DNA of 64,000 nucleotides from NCBI RefSeq assembly GCF_009914755.1, contig NC_060931.1; one strand, given 5' to 3'. Made by a program: the position numbers and the translations under genes. Below the pieces are notes generated by a model, which searched no databases, was not told where the DNA came from, and worked only from the letters and a program-made list of their open reading frames with translations. This document shows positions 43,915-51,915 of this stretch, one piece after another (the stretch's first letter is position 1; each line of letters opens with the position of its first letter). The DNA is from the human T2T-CHM13v2.0 reference genome, Homo sapiens.

Positions 43915-45099
43915 GATGGTATCCAAGAAATGTGTAATAAGACCACATTCTTCAAATGCATTAATTTTTTATAACATTATGCCATTATGCAATTCGCAAT
44001 CACAAACATTATCATGTGCAACTCCAACACTTTCACTTTCTTATTTTGTTTTGTTTCTTTAAAGAGATGTCCTTAAACCAGATGAAAGGAAAAAGACATG
44101 CAGGATCACGATACTCTTGGTTAACACTAAAATGCCATTTAGCCAGCATGCAGGCTGCCAGATAAAACTACGAGGTACTAATAGGATGAATTGACAATTG
44201 TCATTTCATCAAACGTAGTGACAACATTATCTGCAGATCTTAGAAGAATCAGCTCAGAAAACTCCCTGGTTGGTACTGATCCTCTCAGATAGATTGAAAT
44301 CTTTCCAGGCTAGTCCTCAGAGCTCATCAATCAAGGGCAGTTGTCATGGTGAAGAGTTGAATAGATGGCTTCCGTTTAATTGTCCTCAGCCCTCTAGATA
44401 TTGAATGCACTTGGGAACAGCGGGCTGCGCTGGCCCCAGTCTCCCCAGCTAAAATAGTCATTCCTTTCTTACTCCATCTTCACCTGGAGGCATTTATTCA
44501 TTTGTTTATTTAATAAATACATACCAAATGCCTATTATGTGACAGGCACAGGATTCCTGCCAAAGATATCATTGTGAAAAGGTCAGGTGCAGACTTTGCC
44601 TCTACTCACTTCTGTGTGGCAGAAGACAGACCCACAGGCAATCAGTGGGGTGGTGAGTCTGTGCTGTGCATGCTCAGAGAAGGGTGCTGGAGCCCAGAAG
44701 TTACCATCGGGTGTCAACCAAGTGGCTGGGAGCTGGGAGTTGGGTCCTACATGGTCAATAGCTCAGATAAGGATCTCAGCTAAGTGAGGAAGTTCATGTC
44801 CAATTCCCTCCAAAGCACTGAAGCTAAAAGCTATCTTCTCTGAGTCTTCTAAGCAAACAAAGGGAGTAGAAGCCCATCTGCCAAGGAGAAGAAGCTGGTG
44901 ATGAGGAATCGAGTGGTAAAACGAGGAAAACAGAAGAGTGTTGGCGAGGAAGGAAGAAGGGTCCTGGGACTGTCCAGTGGGCAGTACCGTGGTTTCTGCA
45001 GCCCCCATTCATTTGATATCAAGGTTGTAATCAAAGCACAAGCTTGTCCTTGAGAAGCAGAGTTAGGGAGAAGACCACGCAAACAGTGATGTGTCTATC

Positions 45100-45640
45100 C
45101 ATCTACCTATTTGTGTATTTGTCCATTTAGCAAATGATTTCTGAGTTTCCATGTGCCTGTCTTGTGGAGGAGACACACGTTAAACCAAGAGTTACACAAA
45201 TGCTTATTTAGTCCTAAGTATGCATCATGCTCTACAAAGTCCATGATCAGAGTGTCACGGGAAGCTTTCCTGGGGCAGCGACACTCAGCTGAGACCTGGA
45301 AAGTGAGGAGGAAGGAACTAATGAGAAGAGGCAGATTGTGGAAAAGTTTCCCAGGCAAAGTGGGGAGCCTGGCTGAGGACTTCACAGAGAGCTGTATGTA
45401 CAATGGGCAAAAGAAGATGCCCATCACATCATGGAGGGCCACTGGGACTTTACACTAAGTACACCTGGATGATTTTGAATGCGTGGAAAGCTGTGGATGG
45501 GTCTTCATTTTTAAGTGATCACTCTGGCTGCTGTAGCAAGAAGGTGGTGGAAGAAGGCAAGACTGGAGGGGTGGAAGGTGATTAGGAAATAAATATGGCA
45601 GCCCAGGGAAGAGCCATTCACTGGTGGCTTAGCCCTGGGA
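45100..45640 (-). mobile_element. L2 LINE 3' fragment
   Basis: CATTTAGCAAATGATTTCTGAG...GGAAGCTTTCCTGG...GCTGAGACCTG...GATCACTCTGGCTGCTG. Confidence 0.65.
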
Positions 45641-45822
45641 GGGGGTGGGGGTAGTGCCAGTGGAAGTACAGAGTGAACGTCATTTTCATCCAGGGTCAGA
45701 GGTTGCAGTTCTTCCACCTCCATGGGCATGTGACAATAGGTACTTTCACTGCACATAACAATGTGTGTTTAGCAGATGAGAGACAGCCAGCTCCACCTGC
45801 AGTAGACACACTTGTTCATACT

Positions 45823-46143
45823 CTTTTTTCTTCTTTTCTTTTCTTTTTTTTTTTTTTTTTTGAGACAGAGTCTTGTTCTGTCGCCCAGGCTGGAGTGCAA
45901 TGGTGCTATCTTGGCTCACTGCAACCTCCACATCCCAGGTTCAAGCAATTCTCCCTGCCTCAGCCTCCTGAGCAGCTGGGATTACAGGTGCCTGCCACCA
46001 TACCCAGCTAATTTTTATATTTTTAGTAGAGACGGGGTTACACCATGTTGGCCAGGCTGGTCTCGAACTCCTGACCTCAGCTGATCCACCCCCTCGGCCT
46101 CCCAAAGTGTTGGGATTACAGGTGTGAGTCACTGTGCCTGGCC
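45823..46143 (-). mobile_element. AluS-like
   Basis: TSD CACTTG(T/C)TCATA. Confidence 0.92.
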
Positions 46144-46419
46144 CACTTGCTCATATTCAAACCACACAGAAGGCTACATGTCCCGTCAGGGAGCAGAGGG
46201 TTTCACGTTGTAGGCAGGGAGACTCTCTCAGTAGAGGACTTACCTGGAAAGTACCTTAAAACCAGGATGAGACTCCCTGGTAGCACCCAGAAGGAAACAG
46301 AACTGTCATTGGCTGGACACTTAGAGAACCAGTCCAGCGGTGGAGGTTGGGGAAGTTTCTGCAGCTACTGGGCTTTGCATCTGATTAATGTCTGCTTTCT
46401 AGATTGATAAGAAAGAGAA

Positions 46420-46725: not shown

Positions 46726-47099
46726 AAAACAATGCAAAACAAGCTAAAAGGAAAGCTTTTGTCATTCCTGTCTCTGGAGGGTTGAGGATGTTCTGGCCTG
46801 TGATTAAACGGAAGTAGCTTCAGCTGTGAGAACAGGAGAACGTGGGAGGAGAGAGAAGAGACTAGCTGTTTTTGGTTTATCCTATGTCAGTTTTATTTTT
46901 CCCTCCATATTTTCAAAAGAAGGGACTTTAGAAAGCAAATATAAGTCTCTCCAATTTTATGTTTAAAGTGTCATTTCCCAACTGAACTGGCATTTGGATA
47001 CAAGGGTAATAACTGCTGATGAGCATTTCTCTGACCTTATTAGCCAGAACTGGACTCCTCTTCCTTTCCCTCCCAGGCTTGGTCCTGGGGCTTCCAAGA

Positions 47100-47826
<727 letters not shown>

Positions 47827-47912
47827 AGAAGGGAAGTCTCATGTCTGTGAAGAGAGAAGGTGGTGGGGGAGGAAGGCAAGTGTGGAGGGGTGGATAGTGG
47901 GCTCATGGTGCT

Positions 47913-47950
47913 TGCATACTTAGGACTAAATAAGCATTTGTGTAACTCTT
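47913..47950 (-). repeat. 38-bp perfect inverted copy of 45187-45224
   Basis: TGCATACTTAGGACTAAATAAGCATTTGTGTAACTCTT is the reverse complement of AAGAGTTACACAAATGCTTATTTAGTCCTAAGTATGCA. Confidence 0.95.
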
Positions 47951-48059
47951 TCTTTCTTGGGCATGTCCAATCTCTACATGTTTCCCCCTGTGTCATAGAT
48001 TTCATGTTTGTTCCTCCCCACTGCCAAATTCGTATATTGAAACTCTAATCCCCAATGGG

Positions 48060-49665
48060 CTGGGATGTGAGGAGCGCCACTGCCCGGCTGCCCATCGTCT
48101 GGGATGTGAGGAGCGCCTCTGCCCAGCCGCCCTTCATCTGGGAGGTGAGGAGCACCTCTGCCCGGCTGCCCCATCTGGGAGGTGAGGAGCGCCTCTGCCC
48201 AGCCACCCCGTCTGGGAACTGAGGAGTGCCTCTGCCTGGCCGCCCCGTCTGGGAACTGAGGAGCGCCTCTGCCCGGCCGCCCCGTCTAGGAAGTGAGCGC
48301 CTCTGCCCAGCCGCCCTTCATCTGGGAGGTGAGGAGCACCTCTGCCCGGCCACCCCATCTGGGATGTGAGGAGCGCCTCTGCCCAGCCACCCTTCATCTG
48401 GGAGGTGAGGAGCACCTCTGCCCGGCCGCCCCATCTGGGAGGTGAGGAGTGCCTCTGCCCGGCCACCCCGTCTGGGAACTGAGGAGTGCCTCTGCCTGGC
48501 CGCCCCGTCTGGGAACTGAGGAGCGCCTCTGCCCGGCCGCCCCGTCTAGGAAGTGAGCGCCTCTGCCCAGCCGCCCTTCATCTGGGAAGTGAGGAGCGCC
48601 TCTGCCCAGCCGCCCCGTCTGGGAAGTGAGGAGCGCCTCTGCCCGGCTGCCCATAGTCTGGGATGTGAGGAGCGCCTCTGCCCCGCCACCCATCGTCTGG
48701 GATGTGAGGAGCGCAGCTGCCTGGCCGCTCCGTCTGGGATGTGAGGAGCGCCTATGCCCGGCCGCCCCATCCAGGAAGTGGGGAGCGACTCTGCCCAGCC
48801 GCCCCATCTAGGAAGTGAGCGCCTCTGCCCGGCTGCCCCATCTGGGATGTAAGGAGCGCCTCTGCCGGGCTGACCCGTCTGGGAACTGAGGAGGCGCCTC
48901 TGCCTGGCCACCCATCGTCTGGGATGTGAGGAGCGCCTCTGCCCCGCCACCCATCATCTAGGATGTGAGGAGCGCAGCTGCCTGGCCGCTCCGTCTGGGA
49001 TGTGAGGAGCGCCTCTGCCCTGCCACCCATCATCTGGGATGTGAGGAGCGCCTATGCCCGGCAGCCCCGTCCGGGAAGTGGGGAGCACCTCCGCCCGGCC
49101 GCCCCGTCTAGGAAGTGAGCGCCTCTGCCCGGCCACCCCATCTGGGATGTGAGGAGCGCCTCTGCCCGGCCGCCACCCCATCTGGGATGTGAGGAGCACC
49201 TCTGCCTGGCCGCCCCATCTGGGATGTGAGGAGCGCCTCTGCCCCGCCACCCATCGTCTGGGATGTGAGGAGTGCAGCTGCCCGGCTGCTCCATCTGGGA
49301 TGTGAGGAGCGCCTCTGCCCGGCCGCCCCGTCTAGGAAGTGAGTGCCTCTGCCCGGCTGCCCCATCTGGGATGTGAGGAGCGCCTCTGCCCGGCCGCCAC
49401 CCCGTCTGGGAGGTGAGGAGTGCCTCTGCCCGGCCGTTCCGTCTGGGATGTGAGGAGCGCCTCTGCCCGGCAGCTGCCCCATCTGGGAAGTGAGGAGCAC
49501 CTCTGCCCGGCCGCCCCATCTGGGAGGTGAGGAGTGCCTCTGCCCGGCCACCCCATCTGGGAGGTGAGGAGCGCCTCTGCCCGGCTGCCCATCGTCTGGG
49601 AGGTGAGGAGCGACTCTGCCTGGCTGCCCATCTTCTGGGATGTGAGGAGCACCTCTGCCTGGCTG
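48060..49665 (+). repeat. SVA VNTR, about 37-40-bp GC-rich units
   Basis: Roughly 40 tandem variants of TCTGGGA(T/G/A)GTGAGGAGCGCCTCTGCCCGGCCGCCCC. Confidence 0.97.
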
Positions 49666-50353
49666 CTGTGCAATCTTCCAAGTGTGAAGTGACAGCCTTT
49701 CTGCAGGTGTACCCAACAGCTCAGAAGAGACAGTGACCATTGAGAACGGGCCGTGATGATGATGGCGGTTTTGTTGAAAAGAAAAGGGGGAAATGTGGGG
49801 AAAAGAAAGAGAGATCAGATTGTTACTGTGTCTGTGTAGAAAGAAGTAGACATAGGAGACTCCATTTTGCTCTGTACTAAGAAAAATTCTTCTGCCTTCG
49901 GATGCTGTTAATCTATAACCTTACCCCCAACCCCGTGCTCTCTGAAACATGTGCTGTGTCCACTCAGGGTTAAATGGATTAAGGGCGGTGCAAGATGTGC
50001 TTTGTTAAACAGATGCTTGAAGGCAGCATGCTCGTTAAGAGTCATCACCACTCCCTAATCTCAAGTACCCAGGGACACAAACACTGCAGAAGGCCGCAGG
50101 GTCCTCTGCCTAGGAAAACCAGAGACCTTTGTTCACGTGTTTATCTGCTGACCTTCTCTCCACTATTATCCTATGACCCTGCCACATCCCCCTCTCCGAT
50201 AAACACCCAAGAATGATCAATAAATACTAAAAAATAAAAAAATATTTTTCCTATGCATACAGATAAGTAGTAAAATTTAATTTATAAATTTGGCACAGTA
50301 AGATTTCCAGGTGATGTAGTAATACAAAATAAATAAATTAATTAAATGAAAAA
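48060..50353 (+). mobile_element. SVA retrotransposon (SVA_A-like), 5'-truncated, with 3' transduction
   Basis: VNTR then SINE-R (GTGCAATCTTCCAAGTGTGAAGTGACAGCC...GAATGATCAATAAATAC); no CCCTCT hexamer or Alu-like domain; 13-bp TSD AATCCCCAATGGG at 48047-48059 and 50354-50366. Confidence 0.95.
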
Positions 50354-50579
50354 AATCCCCAATGGGATGGTATTTGAAGATGGTGCCTTTGAGAGGTGAT
50401 TAGGTCATCACCATCAACAGGGGCTCATTCTGTTGCCCAGGCTGGAGTGCAGTGGCCTGATCATGAGTCACTGTAGCCTCCAACTCCTGGGCTCAAGCCA
50501 TCCTCCTGCCTTGGCCTGCACAGTAGCTGGGACTACCCACACCTGCTACCATATCCAGCTAACTGAAAAAAAAAAAAAT

Positions 50580-51020
50580 TGAGAACAAGCCTCTTGGATC
50601 TCTCATGTTTTTGTGTTTTCCTCCTTGCTTGCTCTTGCTCAAAGCTTGCATCCTGCCAAGGCATTTTTTTCTCCTTCTGGAGCCATATGCAGGCTGCTTA
50701 TACAGAGGCATCAGTGACCAGTGTCACAATGTTGTTGACACTGGCCCTGACACCACTGTCCCAGCATATCACTGCTGATGTCCCCAGCCCCAAGCCCACT
50801 CCCCTCGATACTGCTGGTGCTACCATTGGCACCAACACAATGTCTCTAGTCTGCCATGGTGGCAGCCTATGTATTTCTACCAGCATATTTTTTTGAGACT
50901 GAGTCTTGCTCTGTTGCCCAGGCTGGAGTGCAATGGTGCAATCTTGACTCCCTACAACCTCCACCTCCTGATCTACCAACAATCTTCATGGCTGTAGAGA
51001 TTATAGAAAATGGGCCCTGT
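50580..51020 (-). pseudogene. Putative CpG-decayed retrocopy 5' fragment, parent unidentified
   Basis: Minus strand GCTGCCACCATGGCAGAC Kozak start, TG/CA-rich body, charged helix-like frame LQKEKKMPWQDASFEQEQARRKTQKHERSKRLVL; interrupted by a short Alu. Confidence 0.4.
50888..50970 (-). mobile_element. Short 5'-truncated Alu
   Basis: Alu 3' end only; TCTACCA(G/A)CA duplicated on flanks. Confidence 0.8.
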
Positions 51021-51043
51021 TTCTTCATTTTTTTTAATTAAAA

Positions 51044-51338
51044 TTTTTTTTTGAGACAGGGGCTTGTTCTGTGTCCCAGGCTAGAGTTCAATGGCCTGAG
51101 CATGAATCACTGCAGCCTTCAACTCCTGGGTTCAAGCCATCCTCCTGCCTTGGCCTCCTAAGTAGCTGGGACTACAGACACATGCTACCGTATCTAGCTA
51201 ACTAAAAGTATATATTTTTTTAGAGACAGGGTCTCGCTCTGTTGCTCAGGCTGCTGTTGAACTCCTGGGTTCAAGTGATCCTCCCTCCTTGGCCTCCTAA
51301 AGTGTTGGGATTACAGGCATGAGCCACCGCACCTGGCC
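51044..51338 (-). mobile_element. AluJ-like
   Basis: Dimer; apparent donor of the fragment at 50417-50565. Confidence 0.9.
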
Positions 51339-51505
51339 TGTTGCTTGCTTTGTTTTATCATCTCTTCATCCTGGTTCCCAATTACAGGCACTGAGGTGCA
51401 GAGTGAGGAGCAAACGCTGTGCTGTCCTTGGAGCTACTCTATCCATAAACAATGGTCATTCTTGGGCCGATCTTGGGCATCTCCAAACTCTACATGTTTC
51501 CCCTC

Positions 51506-51861
51506 TGCCATGACTGTATGTTTGTCCCTCCCTACTGCTAAAATTATATATTGAAACTCTAGTCCCCAATGGGTATTTGAAGATGGTATTTGAAGATGGG
51601 GCCTTTGAGAGGTGATTACATCATGAGGGTGGACCCTTTATGATGGGAATAAAGCTCTTCTAAGACAAGATAGGAGAGAGCTTGTTTTTCCTCTCTCTCT
51701 CCATGTGAGCAAGTCAGAAAGACGCCTCTCACCAGAATCTGACAATGCTAGCACGCTGATCTTGGACTTTCAGCCTCCAGAACTGTGAGAAATAACTATT
51801 TATTGTTTAAGCCACCCAGTCTATGGCATCCTTGTTACAGCAGCCCCAGCTGATGAGGACA
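51506..51861 (+). mobile_element. MLT1A-like MaLR LTR
   Basis: GGGGCCTTTGAGAGGTGATTA...CAGCCTCCAGAACTGTGAGAAATAA...TTTAAGCCACCCAGTCTATGG. Confidence 0.85.
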
Positions 51862-51915
51862 GCCTGTATCAGTTCAAATCTCTAGACAAACAGAAGAAAA
51901 GAAAGAGTTAGACAT

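What the first reader, a model, noticed from the sequence alone, without database searches (positions are those of the whole stretch)
47913..51624. Patchwork of locally templated, order-permuted copies joined by microhomology
Seen: with the SVA removed, 47913-50565 reads as three pieces copied from nearby DNA. (A) 47913-47950 is an inverted copy of 45187-45224. (B) 47955-48059 plus 50367-50408 copies 51471-51624, including ~35 bp of non-LTR flank before the MLT1A 5' end, so it is not an independent LTR insertion. (C) 50417-50565 copies the AluJ arm at 51056-51206, sharing unusual variants (ACAGGGGCT, GGCCTGAnCATGAnTCAC, GCTACCnTATCnAGCTAACT). The donor order is C then B; the copy order is B then C. 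The A/B junction is TGTAAC-TCTT-TCTT-TCTT-GG-GCATG. Both donors carry TCTTGG at that point, giving 6-bp microhomology plus a TCTT stutter. Inference: a fossil multi-template-switch repair event (FoSTeS/MMBIR or Pol theta-type templated insertion). It postdates AluJ and predates the SVA, and probably came with a deletion.
Basis: partly seen in the sequence, partly recalled or inferred. Interest (0 to 1): 0.8.

Follow-up and report, generated by a model that had tools for sequence, protein, structure and literature searches.

The report
Fossil patch of locally copied DNA
A roughly 440-base stretch of human chromosome 7 is stitched together from short copies of DNA lying within 3 kb on either side, an old scar of error-prone break or replication repair of a kind already known from patients and tumours.

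Summary
A' (47913-47950) is a 38/38 inverted copy of 45187-45224, and this sequence occurs nowhere else in the genome. B' (47955-48059 plus 50367-50408, split by the SVA) is sister to the neighbouring LTR at 51471-51624 with support 99/95. C' (50417-50564) is sister to the neighbouring Alu arm at 51056-51203 with support 100/93. I add a fourth local copy, Z' (47829-47899, from 45513-45580). With it, everything between an older LTR edge (47828) and an A13 run (50578) is templated pieces plus 4-13 nt fillers. The 6-bp TCTTGG microhomology is real, and three junctions each show a short re-copied "stutter". The best reading is DNA-level template switching at a break or stalled fork (MMBIR/FoSTeS-like or polymerase-theta-like). 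It postdates the Alu and predates the SVA. The single-event claim is weakened: A'/A has 0 of 38 differences against 50 of 360 for the other three pieces (p=0.005), so the A/A' link is probably younger. The patch has no target-site duplication and no poly(A) signal, which argues against L1-mediated insertion. Outgroup genomes, the decisive test, were not available. This is a known kind of event and of modest interest.

The parts
47829..47899 (+). Z': direct local copy of 45513-45580 (new here). It starts at the edge of the older LTR.
   Evidence: 72 columns at 75%, E 3e-7, the only hit for this stretch in the 64-kb window; the only other candidate in the genome; score 33 against a shuffle maximum of 21 (0 of 300 reach it).
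47900..47912 (+). 13-nt spacer between Z' and A'. Its CATGGTGC resembles CATGATGC just outside the A donor, followed by a repeated TGC (possible stutter).
   Evidence: Read from the alignment. Not statistically significant.
47913..47950 (-). A': inverted copy of 45187-45224, 38/38 identical.
47951..47960 (+). Junction J2: an extra TCTT unit, then the TCTTGG microhomology carried by both the A donor (reverse complement) and the B donor.
47955..48059 (+). B' part 1: copy of 51471-51573. It holds about 30-41 nt of non-LTR flank plus the 5' end of the MaLR-type LTR.
48060..50354 (+). Later SVA insertion, 5'-truncated in the VNTR, with the SINE-R part and a tail of about 115 nt of non-SVA sequence. 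It splits B'. Target-site duplication at 48048-48059 and 50355-50366.
50367..50408 (+). B' part 2: copy of 51583-51624, 39/42.
50409..50416 (+). Junction J3: 8-nt filler CACCATCA that re-copies the CATCA at the end of B (stutter).
50417..50564 (+). C': copy of the right arm of the neighbouring minus-strand Alu (51056-51203), 128/148 ungapped.
50565..50578 (+). Junction J4: G plus A13. The donor reads AAAAG at the matching point. No poly(A) signal upstream and no target-site duplication.
45187..45224 (+). A, the partner of A'. The direction of copying is not settled.
45513..45580 (+). Z, the partner of Z'.
51056..51207 (+). C donor: right arm of a full-length minus-strand Alu (51026-51340).
51471..51624 (+). 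B donor: flank plus the 5' part of a full-length MaLR-type LTR (to about 51860). It carries an extra 9-10 nt tandem repeat that B' and other family copies lack.
47102..47828 (-). Context: an older THE1/MST-type LTR, interrupted by an Alu, whose edge is the left limit of the patch.
   Evidence: 39 other genomic hits end at query positions 146-158, mostly 148-150, which is window 47827-47829. The left end at 47102 is read by eye.

Best explanation
The interval from the LTR edge (47829) to the A13 run (50578), with the later SVA taken out, is a patch of about 440 nt. It holds four short copies of DNA lying within about 3 kb on either side, joined by fillers of 4-13 nt.

The pieces are Z' (about 70 nt, direct), A' (38 nt, inverted), B' (about 147 nt, direct) and C' (about 148 nt, direct). 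The most likely origin is DNA-level template switching. A broken end or stalled nascent strand primed on nearby DNA through a few bases of homology, copied a stretch, fell off and primed again. This is MMBIR/FoSTeS-like replication, or polymerase-theta-like synthesis-dependent end joining.

Shown: the local origin of each piece; the permuted order and mixed orientation; the TCTTGG microhomology; an origin after the donor Alu and before the SVA; and roughly equal divergence on the donor and copy branches.

Inferred: the enzyme pathway; an age of very roughly 35-60 million years for Z', B' and C'; and that the A/A' link arose later, either as a second small templated insertion at the same joint or as a copy made in the opposite direction.
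For: Local origin of B': B and B' are sisters among 28 family copies on LTR-only columns, support 99/95, stem 0.092, tips 0.079 and 0.088.

Local origin of C': C and C' are sisters among 110 Alu right arms, support 100/93, stem 0.10, tips 0.093 and 0.13. They share 22 departures from the majority base. Only 3 of 5994 other pairs share as many, and all three are pairs of copies from duplicated loci.

A is unique in the genome apart from A'. Z' matches Z with score 33 against a shuffle maximum of 21, and it is the only other genome candidate.

The donors are complete elements, a full LTR and a two-armed Alu with its tail, while the copies are fragments. This sets the direction of copying for B and C.

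Junctions: TCTTGG is present in both donors at J2. J1, J2 and J3 each carry a re-copied run of 3-5 nt: TGC, TCTT and CATCA.

No homology continues beyond the patch on either side. No target-site duplication and no AATAAA or ATTAAA precede the A-run. By contrast, the truncated Alu at 50887-50968 does appear to carry an imperfect flanking repeat, read by eye.

MMBIR-type templated insertions with several templates, inverted copies and microhomology are described in PMC8421209 (abstract and passages read).
Against: A'/A has 0 of 38 differences against 37 of 293 for B+C (p=0.008) and 50 of 360 with Z added (p=0.0046). At least one step is therefore either later or a roughly 1-in-100 accident. Two events at one joint is itself an unlikely coincidence.

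The A13 run at the 3' end of the patch is what a reverse-transcribed RNA would leave.

Pieces of about 150 nt from templates 0.6-2.7 kb away are longer and more distant than typical polymerase-theta insertions.

The genome searches scored only 40 of 362 candidates for B and 40 of 2783 for C. So "best in the genome" is a lower-bound statement.

No outgroup sequence was available. The pre-event state, any deletion and the number of events are all inferred.
Confidence: 0.5

Rival explanations
1. One reading: one multi-template-switch event laid down all the pieces (now Z', A', B', C') at once. On this view the zero divergence of A' is chance or a locally low mutation rate.
For: A' sits between old pieces, Z' 13 nt to its left and B' to its right. 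Its joint with B' uses a microhomology present in both donors. All three inner junctions carry the same kind of 3-5 nt stutter. A second independent templated insertion at exactly this joint is improbable a priori. A is AT-rich and has no CpG, and with the non-CpG rate p rises to 0.014-0.019.
Against: A has 0 of 38 differences against 13 of 67 for its immediate neighbour Z' (p=0.0018) and against 50 of 360 for all the other pieces (p=0.0046). The longest perfect run in B and C is 25 nt.
Confidence: 0.3
2. An RNA-templated patch. A reverse transcriptase (L1 ORF2p) copied local transcripts, jumped between templates, and the cDNA was used to seal a break. This would be a class 2 templated sequence insertion, or an endonuclease-independent L1-type event.
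For: The patch ends in A13. Class 2 insertions show microhomology and small fillers and lack a target-site duplication (PMC5110952, abstract and passages). Template jumping gives chimeras whose 3'-most piece carries the A tail.
Against: No AATAAA or ATTAAA in the 45 nt before the A-run, and no shared run of 6 nt or more at the patch boundaries. The donor itself has AAAAG at that point, so the run may be templated and then expanded. One piece is inverted, so both sense and antisense transcripts would be needed. No gene is annotated here (hub table). The piece ends are not splice sites.
Confidence: 0.1
3. Reintegration of a small circular or linear DNA fragment excised or copied from 51056-51624. 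A circle joined from the end of B to the start of C would give the B-then-C order in one step.
For: The permuted order B'-C' equals the junction of a circle made from C...B.
Against: The 264 nt between C and B (51207-51470) are absent from the copy. This reading does not explain Z' or A', which come from the other side. The donors are still in place.
Confidence: 0.05
4. Nothing special: independent repeat insertions, or an ordinary tandem duplication later eroded by deletions.
For: B and C belong to abundant repeat families. Two of 28 other LTR copies show weak similarity to the flank of B.
Against: Sister relations at 99/95 and 100/93. The shared flank scores 30 for B' against 15 or less for the others. 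C' has no T-tail on the side where an Alu insertion would have one, and no flanking repeat. A and Z are not repeats. The permuted order and an inverted piece do not fit duplication plus deletion. No homology continues outside the pieces.
Confidence: 0.03

Closest known systems
MMBIR/FoSTeS templated insertions at rearrangement junctions (MMB-TIs; PMC8421209, abstract and passages read)
   Same: Several short templates from nearby DNA in direct and inverted orientation, joined at microhomology with small fillers. There is no target-site duplication.
   Different: This one is an old, fixed germline event with no accompanying large copy-number change that can be seen. The pieces (38-150 nt) and template distances (0.6-2.7 kb) exceed the 100-bp search radius used in that paper. 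The pieces do not all have the same divergence.
Short-range template switches in great-ape genomes (PMC7954356, abstract only)
   Same: Evolutionary fossils of a nascent strand switching to a nearby template. These often produce inverted copies.
   Different: From recall, not read here: those events involve tens of bases within one small window and a single there-and-back switch. Here there are four pieces, two donor zones several kb apart, and about 440 nt inserted.
Templated sequence insertion polymorphisms, classes 1 and 2 (PMC5110952, abstract and passages)
   Same: A patch of sequence templated elsewhere fills a break. Class 2 shows microhomology and non-templated bases and no target-site duplication.
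   Different: TSIP templates are distant, usually on other chromosomes, and are RNA-derived single pieces. Here the templates are local, multiple and on both strands. Of the four class 1 features, only the A tract is present.
Polymerase-theta-mediated end joining with templated insertions
   Same: Microhomology priming, and aborted and repeated synthesis giving short stutters at joints.
   Different: From recall, typical insertions are under about 30 nt from templates within tens of bases. B' and C' are about 150 nt each.

Membership tests
MMBIR/FoSTeS-type multi-template insertion | Inserted segments are copies of other genomic DNA, not of a mobile element's own transposition. | tested here: met
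   each piece is closest to a neighbour within 3 kb. Two of the pieces are unique DNA.
MMBIR/FoSTeS-type multi-template insertion | Microhomology or microhomeology at the switch points. | tested here: inconclusive
   J2 has 6 bp (TCTTGG) in both donors. J1, J3 and J4 have 0-2 bp plus fillers and stutters.
MMBIR/FoSTeS-type multi-template insertion | All segments laid down in one replicative event. | tested here: not met
   A'/A has 0 of 38 differences against 50 of 360 for the other pieces, p=0.0046. This is a clock argument, not a direct observation.
MMBIR/FoSTeS-type multi-template insertion | Absence of the patch in an ancestral or pre-event allele. | not testable with these tools
   No primate outgroup genomes are held.
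Class 1 TSIP / L1-mediated retro-insertion | Target-site duplication of 5 bp or more at both junctions. | tested here: not met
   no shared k-mer of 6 nt or more at the junctions. The only 6-mer hit (CTCATG) lies 23 nt inside the right flank.
Class 1 TSIP / L1-mediated retro-insertion | Poly(A) tract 10-40 nt long, preceded by AATAAA 10-20 nt upstream. | tested here: not met
   A13 is present, but there is no AATAAA or ATTAAA in the preceding 45 nt.
Class 1 TSIP / L1-mediated retro-insertion | Insertion at a TTTT/A cleavage site. | tested here: inconclusive
   The target cannot be reconstructed without a target-site duplication or an empty site.
Independent LTR / Alu insertions | Each copy relates to the family as a whole, not to one neighbour, and carries its own termini and flanking repeat. 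| tested here: not met
Tandem or segmental duplication | Colinear order and orientation of the copied block, with homology continuous across it. | tested here: not met
   The order is permuted and one piece is inverted. There is no homology between the pieces or beyond them.

The most novel reading that the evidence does not exclude
The whole 440-nt interval is one micro-scale, chromoanasynthesis-like event: at least four consecutive template switches between two donor zones that flank the break. It was fixed in an early anthropoid ancestor. The 3-5 nt stutter at every inner joint would be the preserved footprint of a low-processivity polymerase. On this reading the undiverged A' would need another cause, such as local constraint. 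Such fossils would then let the enzymology of ancient germline repair be read from present genomes.
Probability: 0.3. Interest if true: 0.45.

Novelty: new member of a known kind. Interest (0 to 1): 0.3.

Why it matters
This is a clean worked example showing that fragments which look like repeats (a piece of LTR, an Alu arm) can be locally templated repair patches rather than transposon insertions. Repeat annotation would miss this. It also shows that piece-by-piece divergence can test whether a complex scar was made in one step. The locus lies in a gene desert and nothing suggests a function. The only annotated enhancer belongs to the later SVA. The mechanism class is already well described in patients, tumours and great-ape comparisons, so the value is illustrative rather than conceptual.

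Tried and rejected
1. Extending the copies. I looked for homology continuing left of the LTR (46730-47101, 46160-46410) or into the right flank (50579-50886, 50960-51030), against both donor zones. All scores fell within the shuffle range.

2. Testing whether the flank of B is really part of the repeat. L008 and L028 show short similarities next to their LTR starts. Comparisons over 300 nt upstream are not above shuffles. A genome search with 51341-51515 found only itself. This is left as a caveat.

3. Target-site duplication, poly(A) signal and splice-site reading of the piece ends: none found.

4. Short exact matches around the junctions. A 10-mer at 50582-50591 equals the reverse complement of donor C at 51061-51070. 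TCTTGG recurs at 50592-50597. An 8-mer, TCTCATGT, occurs at both 47837-47844 and 50601-50608. Each is near chance expectation and was found post hoc, so none is used as evidence.

5. The shuffle was meant to preserve dinucleotides but did so in only 5 of 300 draws. It is a composition-preserving control only.

7. The tools hold no repeat library (RepeatMasker/Dfam), no primate genomes and no population data. The family names and all dating in years are recalled or inferred.
Full report
**What is there.** I read 44.9-52.1 kb and ran a repeat search over 44-52.5 kb.
- inverted arms 45182-45224 / 47913-47955, 43 nt at 95%;
- direct pairs 47955-47987 / 51471-51503 (94%), 48004-48059 / 51518-51573 (88%) and 50366-50408 / 51582-51624 (93%);
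- 50417-50568 / 51056-51207 (86%, 152 nt ungapped).

The SVA (48060-50354) is 5'-truncated in its VNTR. It is flanked by a perfect 12-nt target-site duplication at 48048-48059 and 50355-50366. It was therefore inserted into an already existing B'.

**Piece A.** A whole-genome search with 45140-45300 returned two places only: the query itself and the inverted 38-mer at 47913-47950, at 100% (2 candidates, 2 scored). A wider query, 45000-45720, gave the same result plus one more local match, described under Z below. A is therefore unique DNA, and the 38/38 match cannot be chance.

**Piece B.** With 51440-51640 as query (362 first-look candidates, 40 scored) the best non-self hit is the local copy: 85% over query 32-134, 111 bits. 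The next best hit is 86 bits at 76%, and every other hit starts at query position 56 or later.
- Re-aligning 28 fetched family copies to 51400-51900 gave 31 alignments. Family homology begins at 51501-51515 in 20 of them, later in 10, and at 51474 in one, L008.
- The 60 nt upstream of the LTR start aligns to B' with score 30. It aligns to the 28 other copies with scores of 5-15. Only L028 and L008 exceed their shuffles, with 0 and 1 of 200 shuffles reaching them.
- Viewed directly, those two similarities are short. They vanish in a 300-nt comparison.
- So about 30-41 nt of non-LTR flank is shared with B'. One caveat: the true LTR start could lie some 10-18 nt further upstream.
- On LTR-only columns (107 kept) B and B' are sisters with support 99/95, a shared stem of 0.092, and tips of 0.079 and 0.088.
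- The donor carries an extra 9-10 nt tandem repeat. It is absent from B' and from the three other family copies viewed (L028, L008, L004), so it arose in the donor after the copying.

**Piece C.** The genome search with C' scored only 40 of 2783 candidates and did not list the neighbour. That search is therefore not exhaustive.
- On identical scoring, C' against C gives 180 bits, compared with 152 for the best of the 30 fetched loci. Within the window the next best Alu reaches 116 bits against 159.
- Among 110 Alu right arms, C' and C differ from the majority base at 34 and 37 columns and share 22 of these.
- Of 5994 other pairs, the mean is 5.6 shared and the 99.9th percentile is 19. Only three pairs share 22 or more. 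All three are copies from duplicated loci: contigs C23 and C24 (read as X and Y) and two C15 sites.
- The tree places C and C' as sisters at 100/93, with stem 0.10 and tips 0.093 and 0.13.
- The donor is a complete two-armed minus-strand Alu with its T-tail (51026-51340). C' is the right arm alone, without a T-tail and without a flanking repeat. Copying therefore ran from donor to C'.

**A fourth piece.** Just left of A', 47829-47899 aligns in direct orientation to 45513-45580. There are 72 columns, with 13 mismatches and 5 gap positions.
- It is the only hit for this stretch in the 64-kb window and the only other candidate genome-wide.
- The local score is 33, against a shuffle mean of 15.3 and maximum of 21. 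These shuffles preserve composition only.
- The THE1/MST-type LTR to the left ends at 47827-47829: 39 other genomic hits end at query positions 146-158, mostly 148-150.
- So the whole interval from that LTR edge to the A-run at 50578, with the SVA removed, consists of four templated pieces and fillers. The layout is Z' (71 nt), 13 nt, A' (38), 4 nt, B' (147), 8 nt, C' (148), then G plus A13.
- No homology continues beyond either end. Both flanks are unique in the genome.

**Junctions.**
- J2 reads GTAAC-TCTT-TCTT-TCTTGG-GCATG. The A donor, reverse-complemented, reads GTAAC-TCTTGG-TTT. The B donor reads CCGA-TCTTGG-GCATC. This is a true 6-bp microhomology with two extra TCTT units.
- J3 is GGTCAT-CACCATCA-ACAGGGG. 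The filler repeats the CATCA that ends B.
- J1 may begin eight bases earlier. CATGGTGC there compares with CATGATGC in the donor, followed by a repeated TGC.
- Short re-copying at three joints fits a polymerase that primes, aborts and re-primes. Apart from J2, none of this is statistically strong.
- J4 is AGCTAACT-G-A13. The donor has AAAAG there, so part of the run may be templated and later expanded.

**One event or more.**
- Divergence is 17 of 145 aligned bases for B, 20 of 148 for C and 13 of 67 for Z. These figures do not differ significantly from one another (Z against B+C, p=0.17).
- For A it is 0 of 38. Fisher one-sided tests give p=0.008 against B+C, p=0.019 for non-CpG differences only, p=0.0018 against Z, and p=0.0046 against all three pooled.
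- The longest perfect run in B or C is 25 nt.
- Donor and copy tips are about equal in both trees. The divergence is therefore time, not sloppy copying.
- With 0 of 38 differences, the 95% upper bound for A/A' divergence is about 7.6%. That is roughly half the value for the other pieces.
- I conclude that the A/A' link is probably younger. The alternative is a roughly 1-in-100 accident.
- The direction is open. A' could be a later 38-nt inverted insertion at the Z'/B' joint. Equally, the 40-mer at 45185-45224 could be a later copy of A' plus the first six bases of B'. On that second reading TCTTGG in "donor A" would be copied sequence, not microhomology.
- Against two steps: a second templated event at exactly this joint is a priori rare, and the junction style is uniform.

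**RNA or DNA.**
- The A13 run made me test the L1 route. I used the class 1 criteria from PMC5110952 (abstract and passages): target-site duplication, a poly(A) signal 10-20 nt upstream, an A tract and a TTTT/A target site.
- Only the A tract is present.
- For contrast, the truncated Alu nearby at 50887-50968 has its T-tail and an imperfect 11-nt flanking repeat (read by eye).
- A class 2, RNA-derived patch cannot be excluded. It would need transcripts of both strands in a region with no annotated gene.
- DNA-level template switching accounts for the inverted piece, the two donor zones on either side and the microhomology without extra assumptions. PMC8421209 (abstract and passages) describes the human signature as templated insertions from several templates, often inverted, flanked by microhomology.
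- PMC7954356 (abstract only) shows that template-switch fossils are widespread in great-ape genomes.

**Age (inferred).** Tips of 0.08-0.09 per site for B suggest very roughly 35-60 million years at commonly quoted primate neutral rates (recalled). This fits an origin after the donor Alu and well before the hominoid-specific SVA.

**Verdict.** The single-event claim is doubtful, and the deletion claim is untestable here. This is a new example of a known kind of mutation in non-functional DNA. No search for this locus in print was made. The three literature searches (one search was rejected) were aimed at mechanisms.

Noticed in passing
window 50236-50354; L066 (contig C2:135565851-135565958): About 115 nt follow the SVA's own A-rich end, with a second A-tail after them. 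They match one place on contig C2 (read as chromosome 2) at 95%. They look like a 3' transduction. In this assembly no SVA lies upstream of that C2 site, where the sequence continues as an old DNA-transposon-like repeat. The source element is therefore absent or lost there.
   Followed up: partly
window 51574-51595: The donor LTR has a short tandem repeat, with the unit TATTTGAAGATGG read twice. It is absent from B' and from the three other family copies viewed (L028, L008, L004). It is a later slip in the donor and a useful polarity marker.
   Followed up: yes
window 50887-50968: A 5'-truncated minus-strand Alu: a T-tail plus about 75 nt. It has an imperfect flanking repeat of about 11 nt (TCTACCA...), read by eye. 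It is an ordinary retro-insertion and served as a contrast to C'. Its best window match is the Alu at 45855-45935, at 90%.
   Followed up: partly
window 50582-50608 and 47837-47844: Three short coincidences at the right edge of the patch. A 10-mer equals the reverse complement of the start of donor C (51061-51070). The junction motif TCTTGG recurs at 50592-50597. The 8-mer TCTCATGT occurs near both ends of the patch. Each is near chance level, but together they may mark the re-entry point.
   Followed up: partly
window 49776-50283: The RefSeq 'enhancer' in the hub table lies wholly inside the SINE-R part of the SVA. It is not in the patch.
   Followed up: no
window 48098-48617: The SVA VNTR contains a higher-order duplication: 260-nt blocks at 48098-48357 and 48358-48617 are 97% identical.
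   Followed up: no
window 47097-47101 and 47829-47833: The 5-nt sites flanking the THE1/MST-type LTR (AAGAG and GAAGG) do not match cleanly. It is therefore unclear whether the LTR went in before or after the patch formed at its edge.
   Followed up: no
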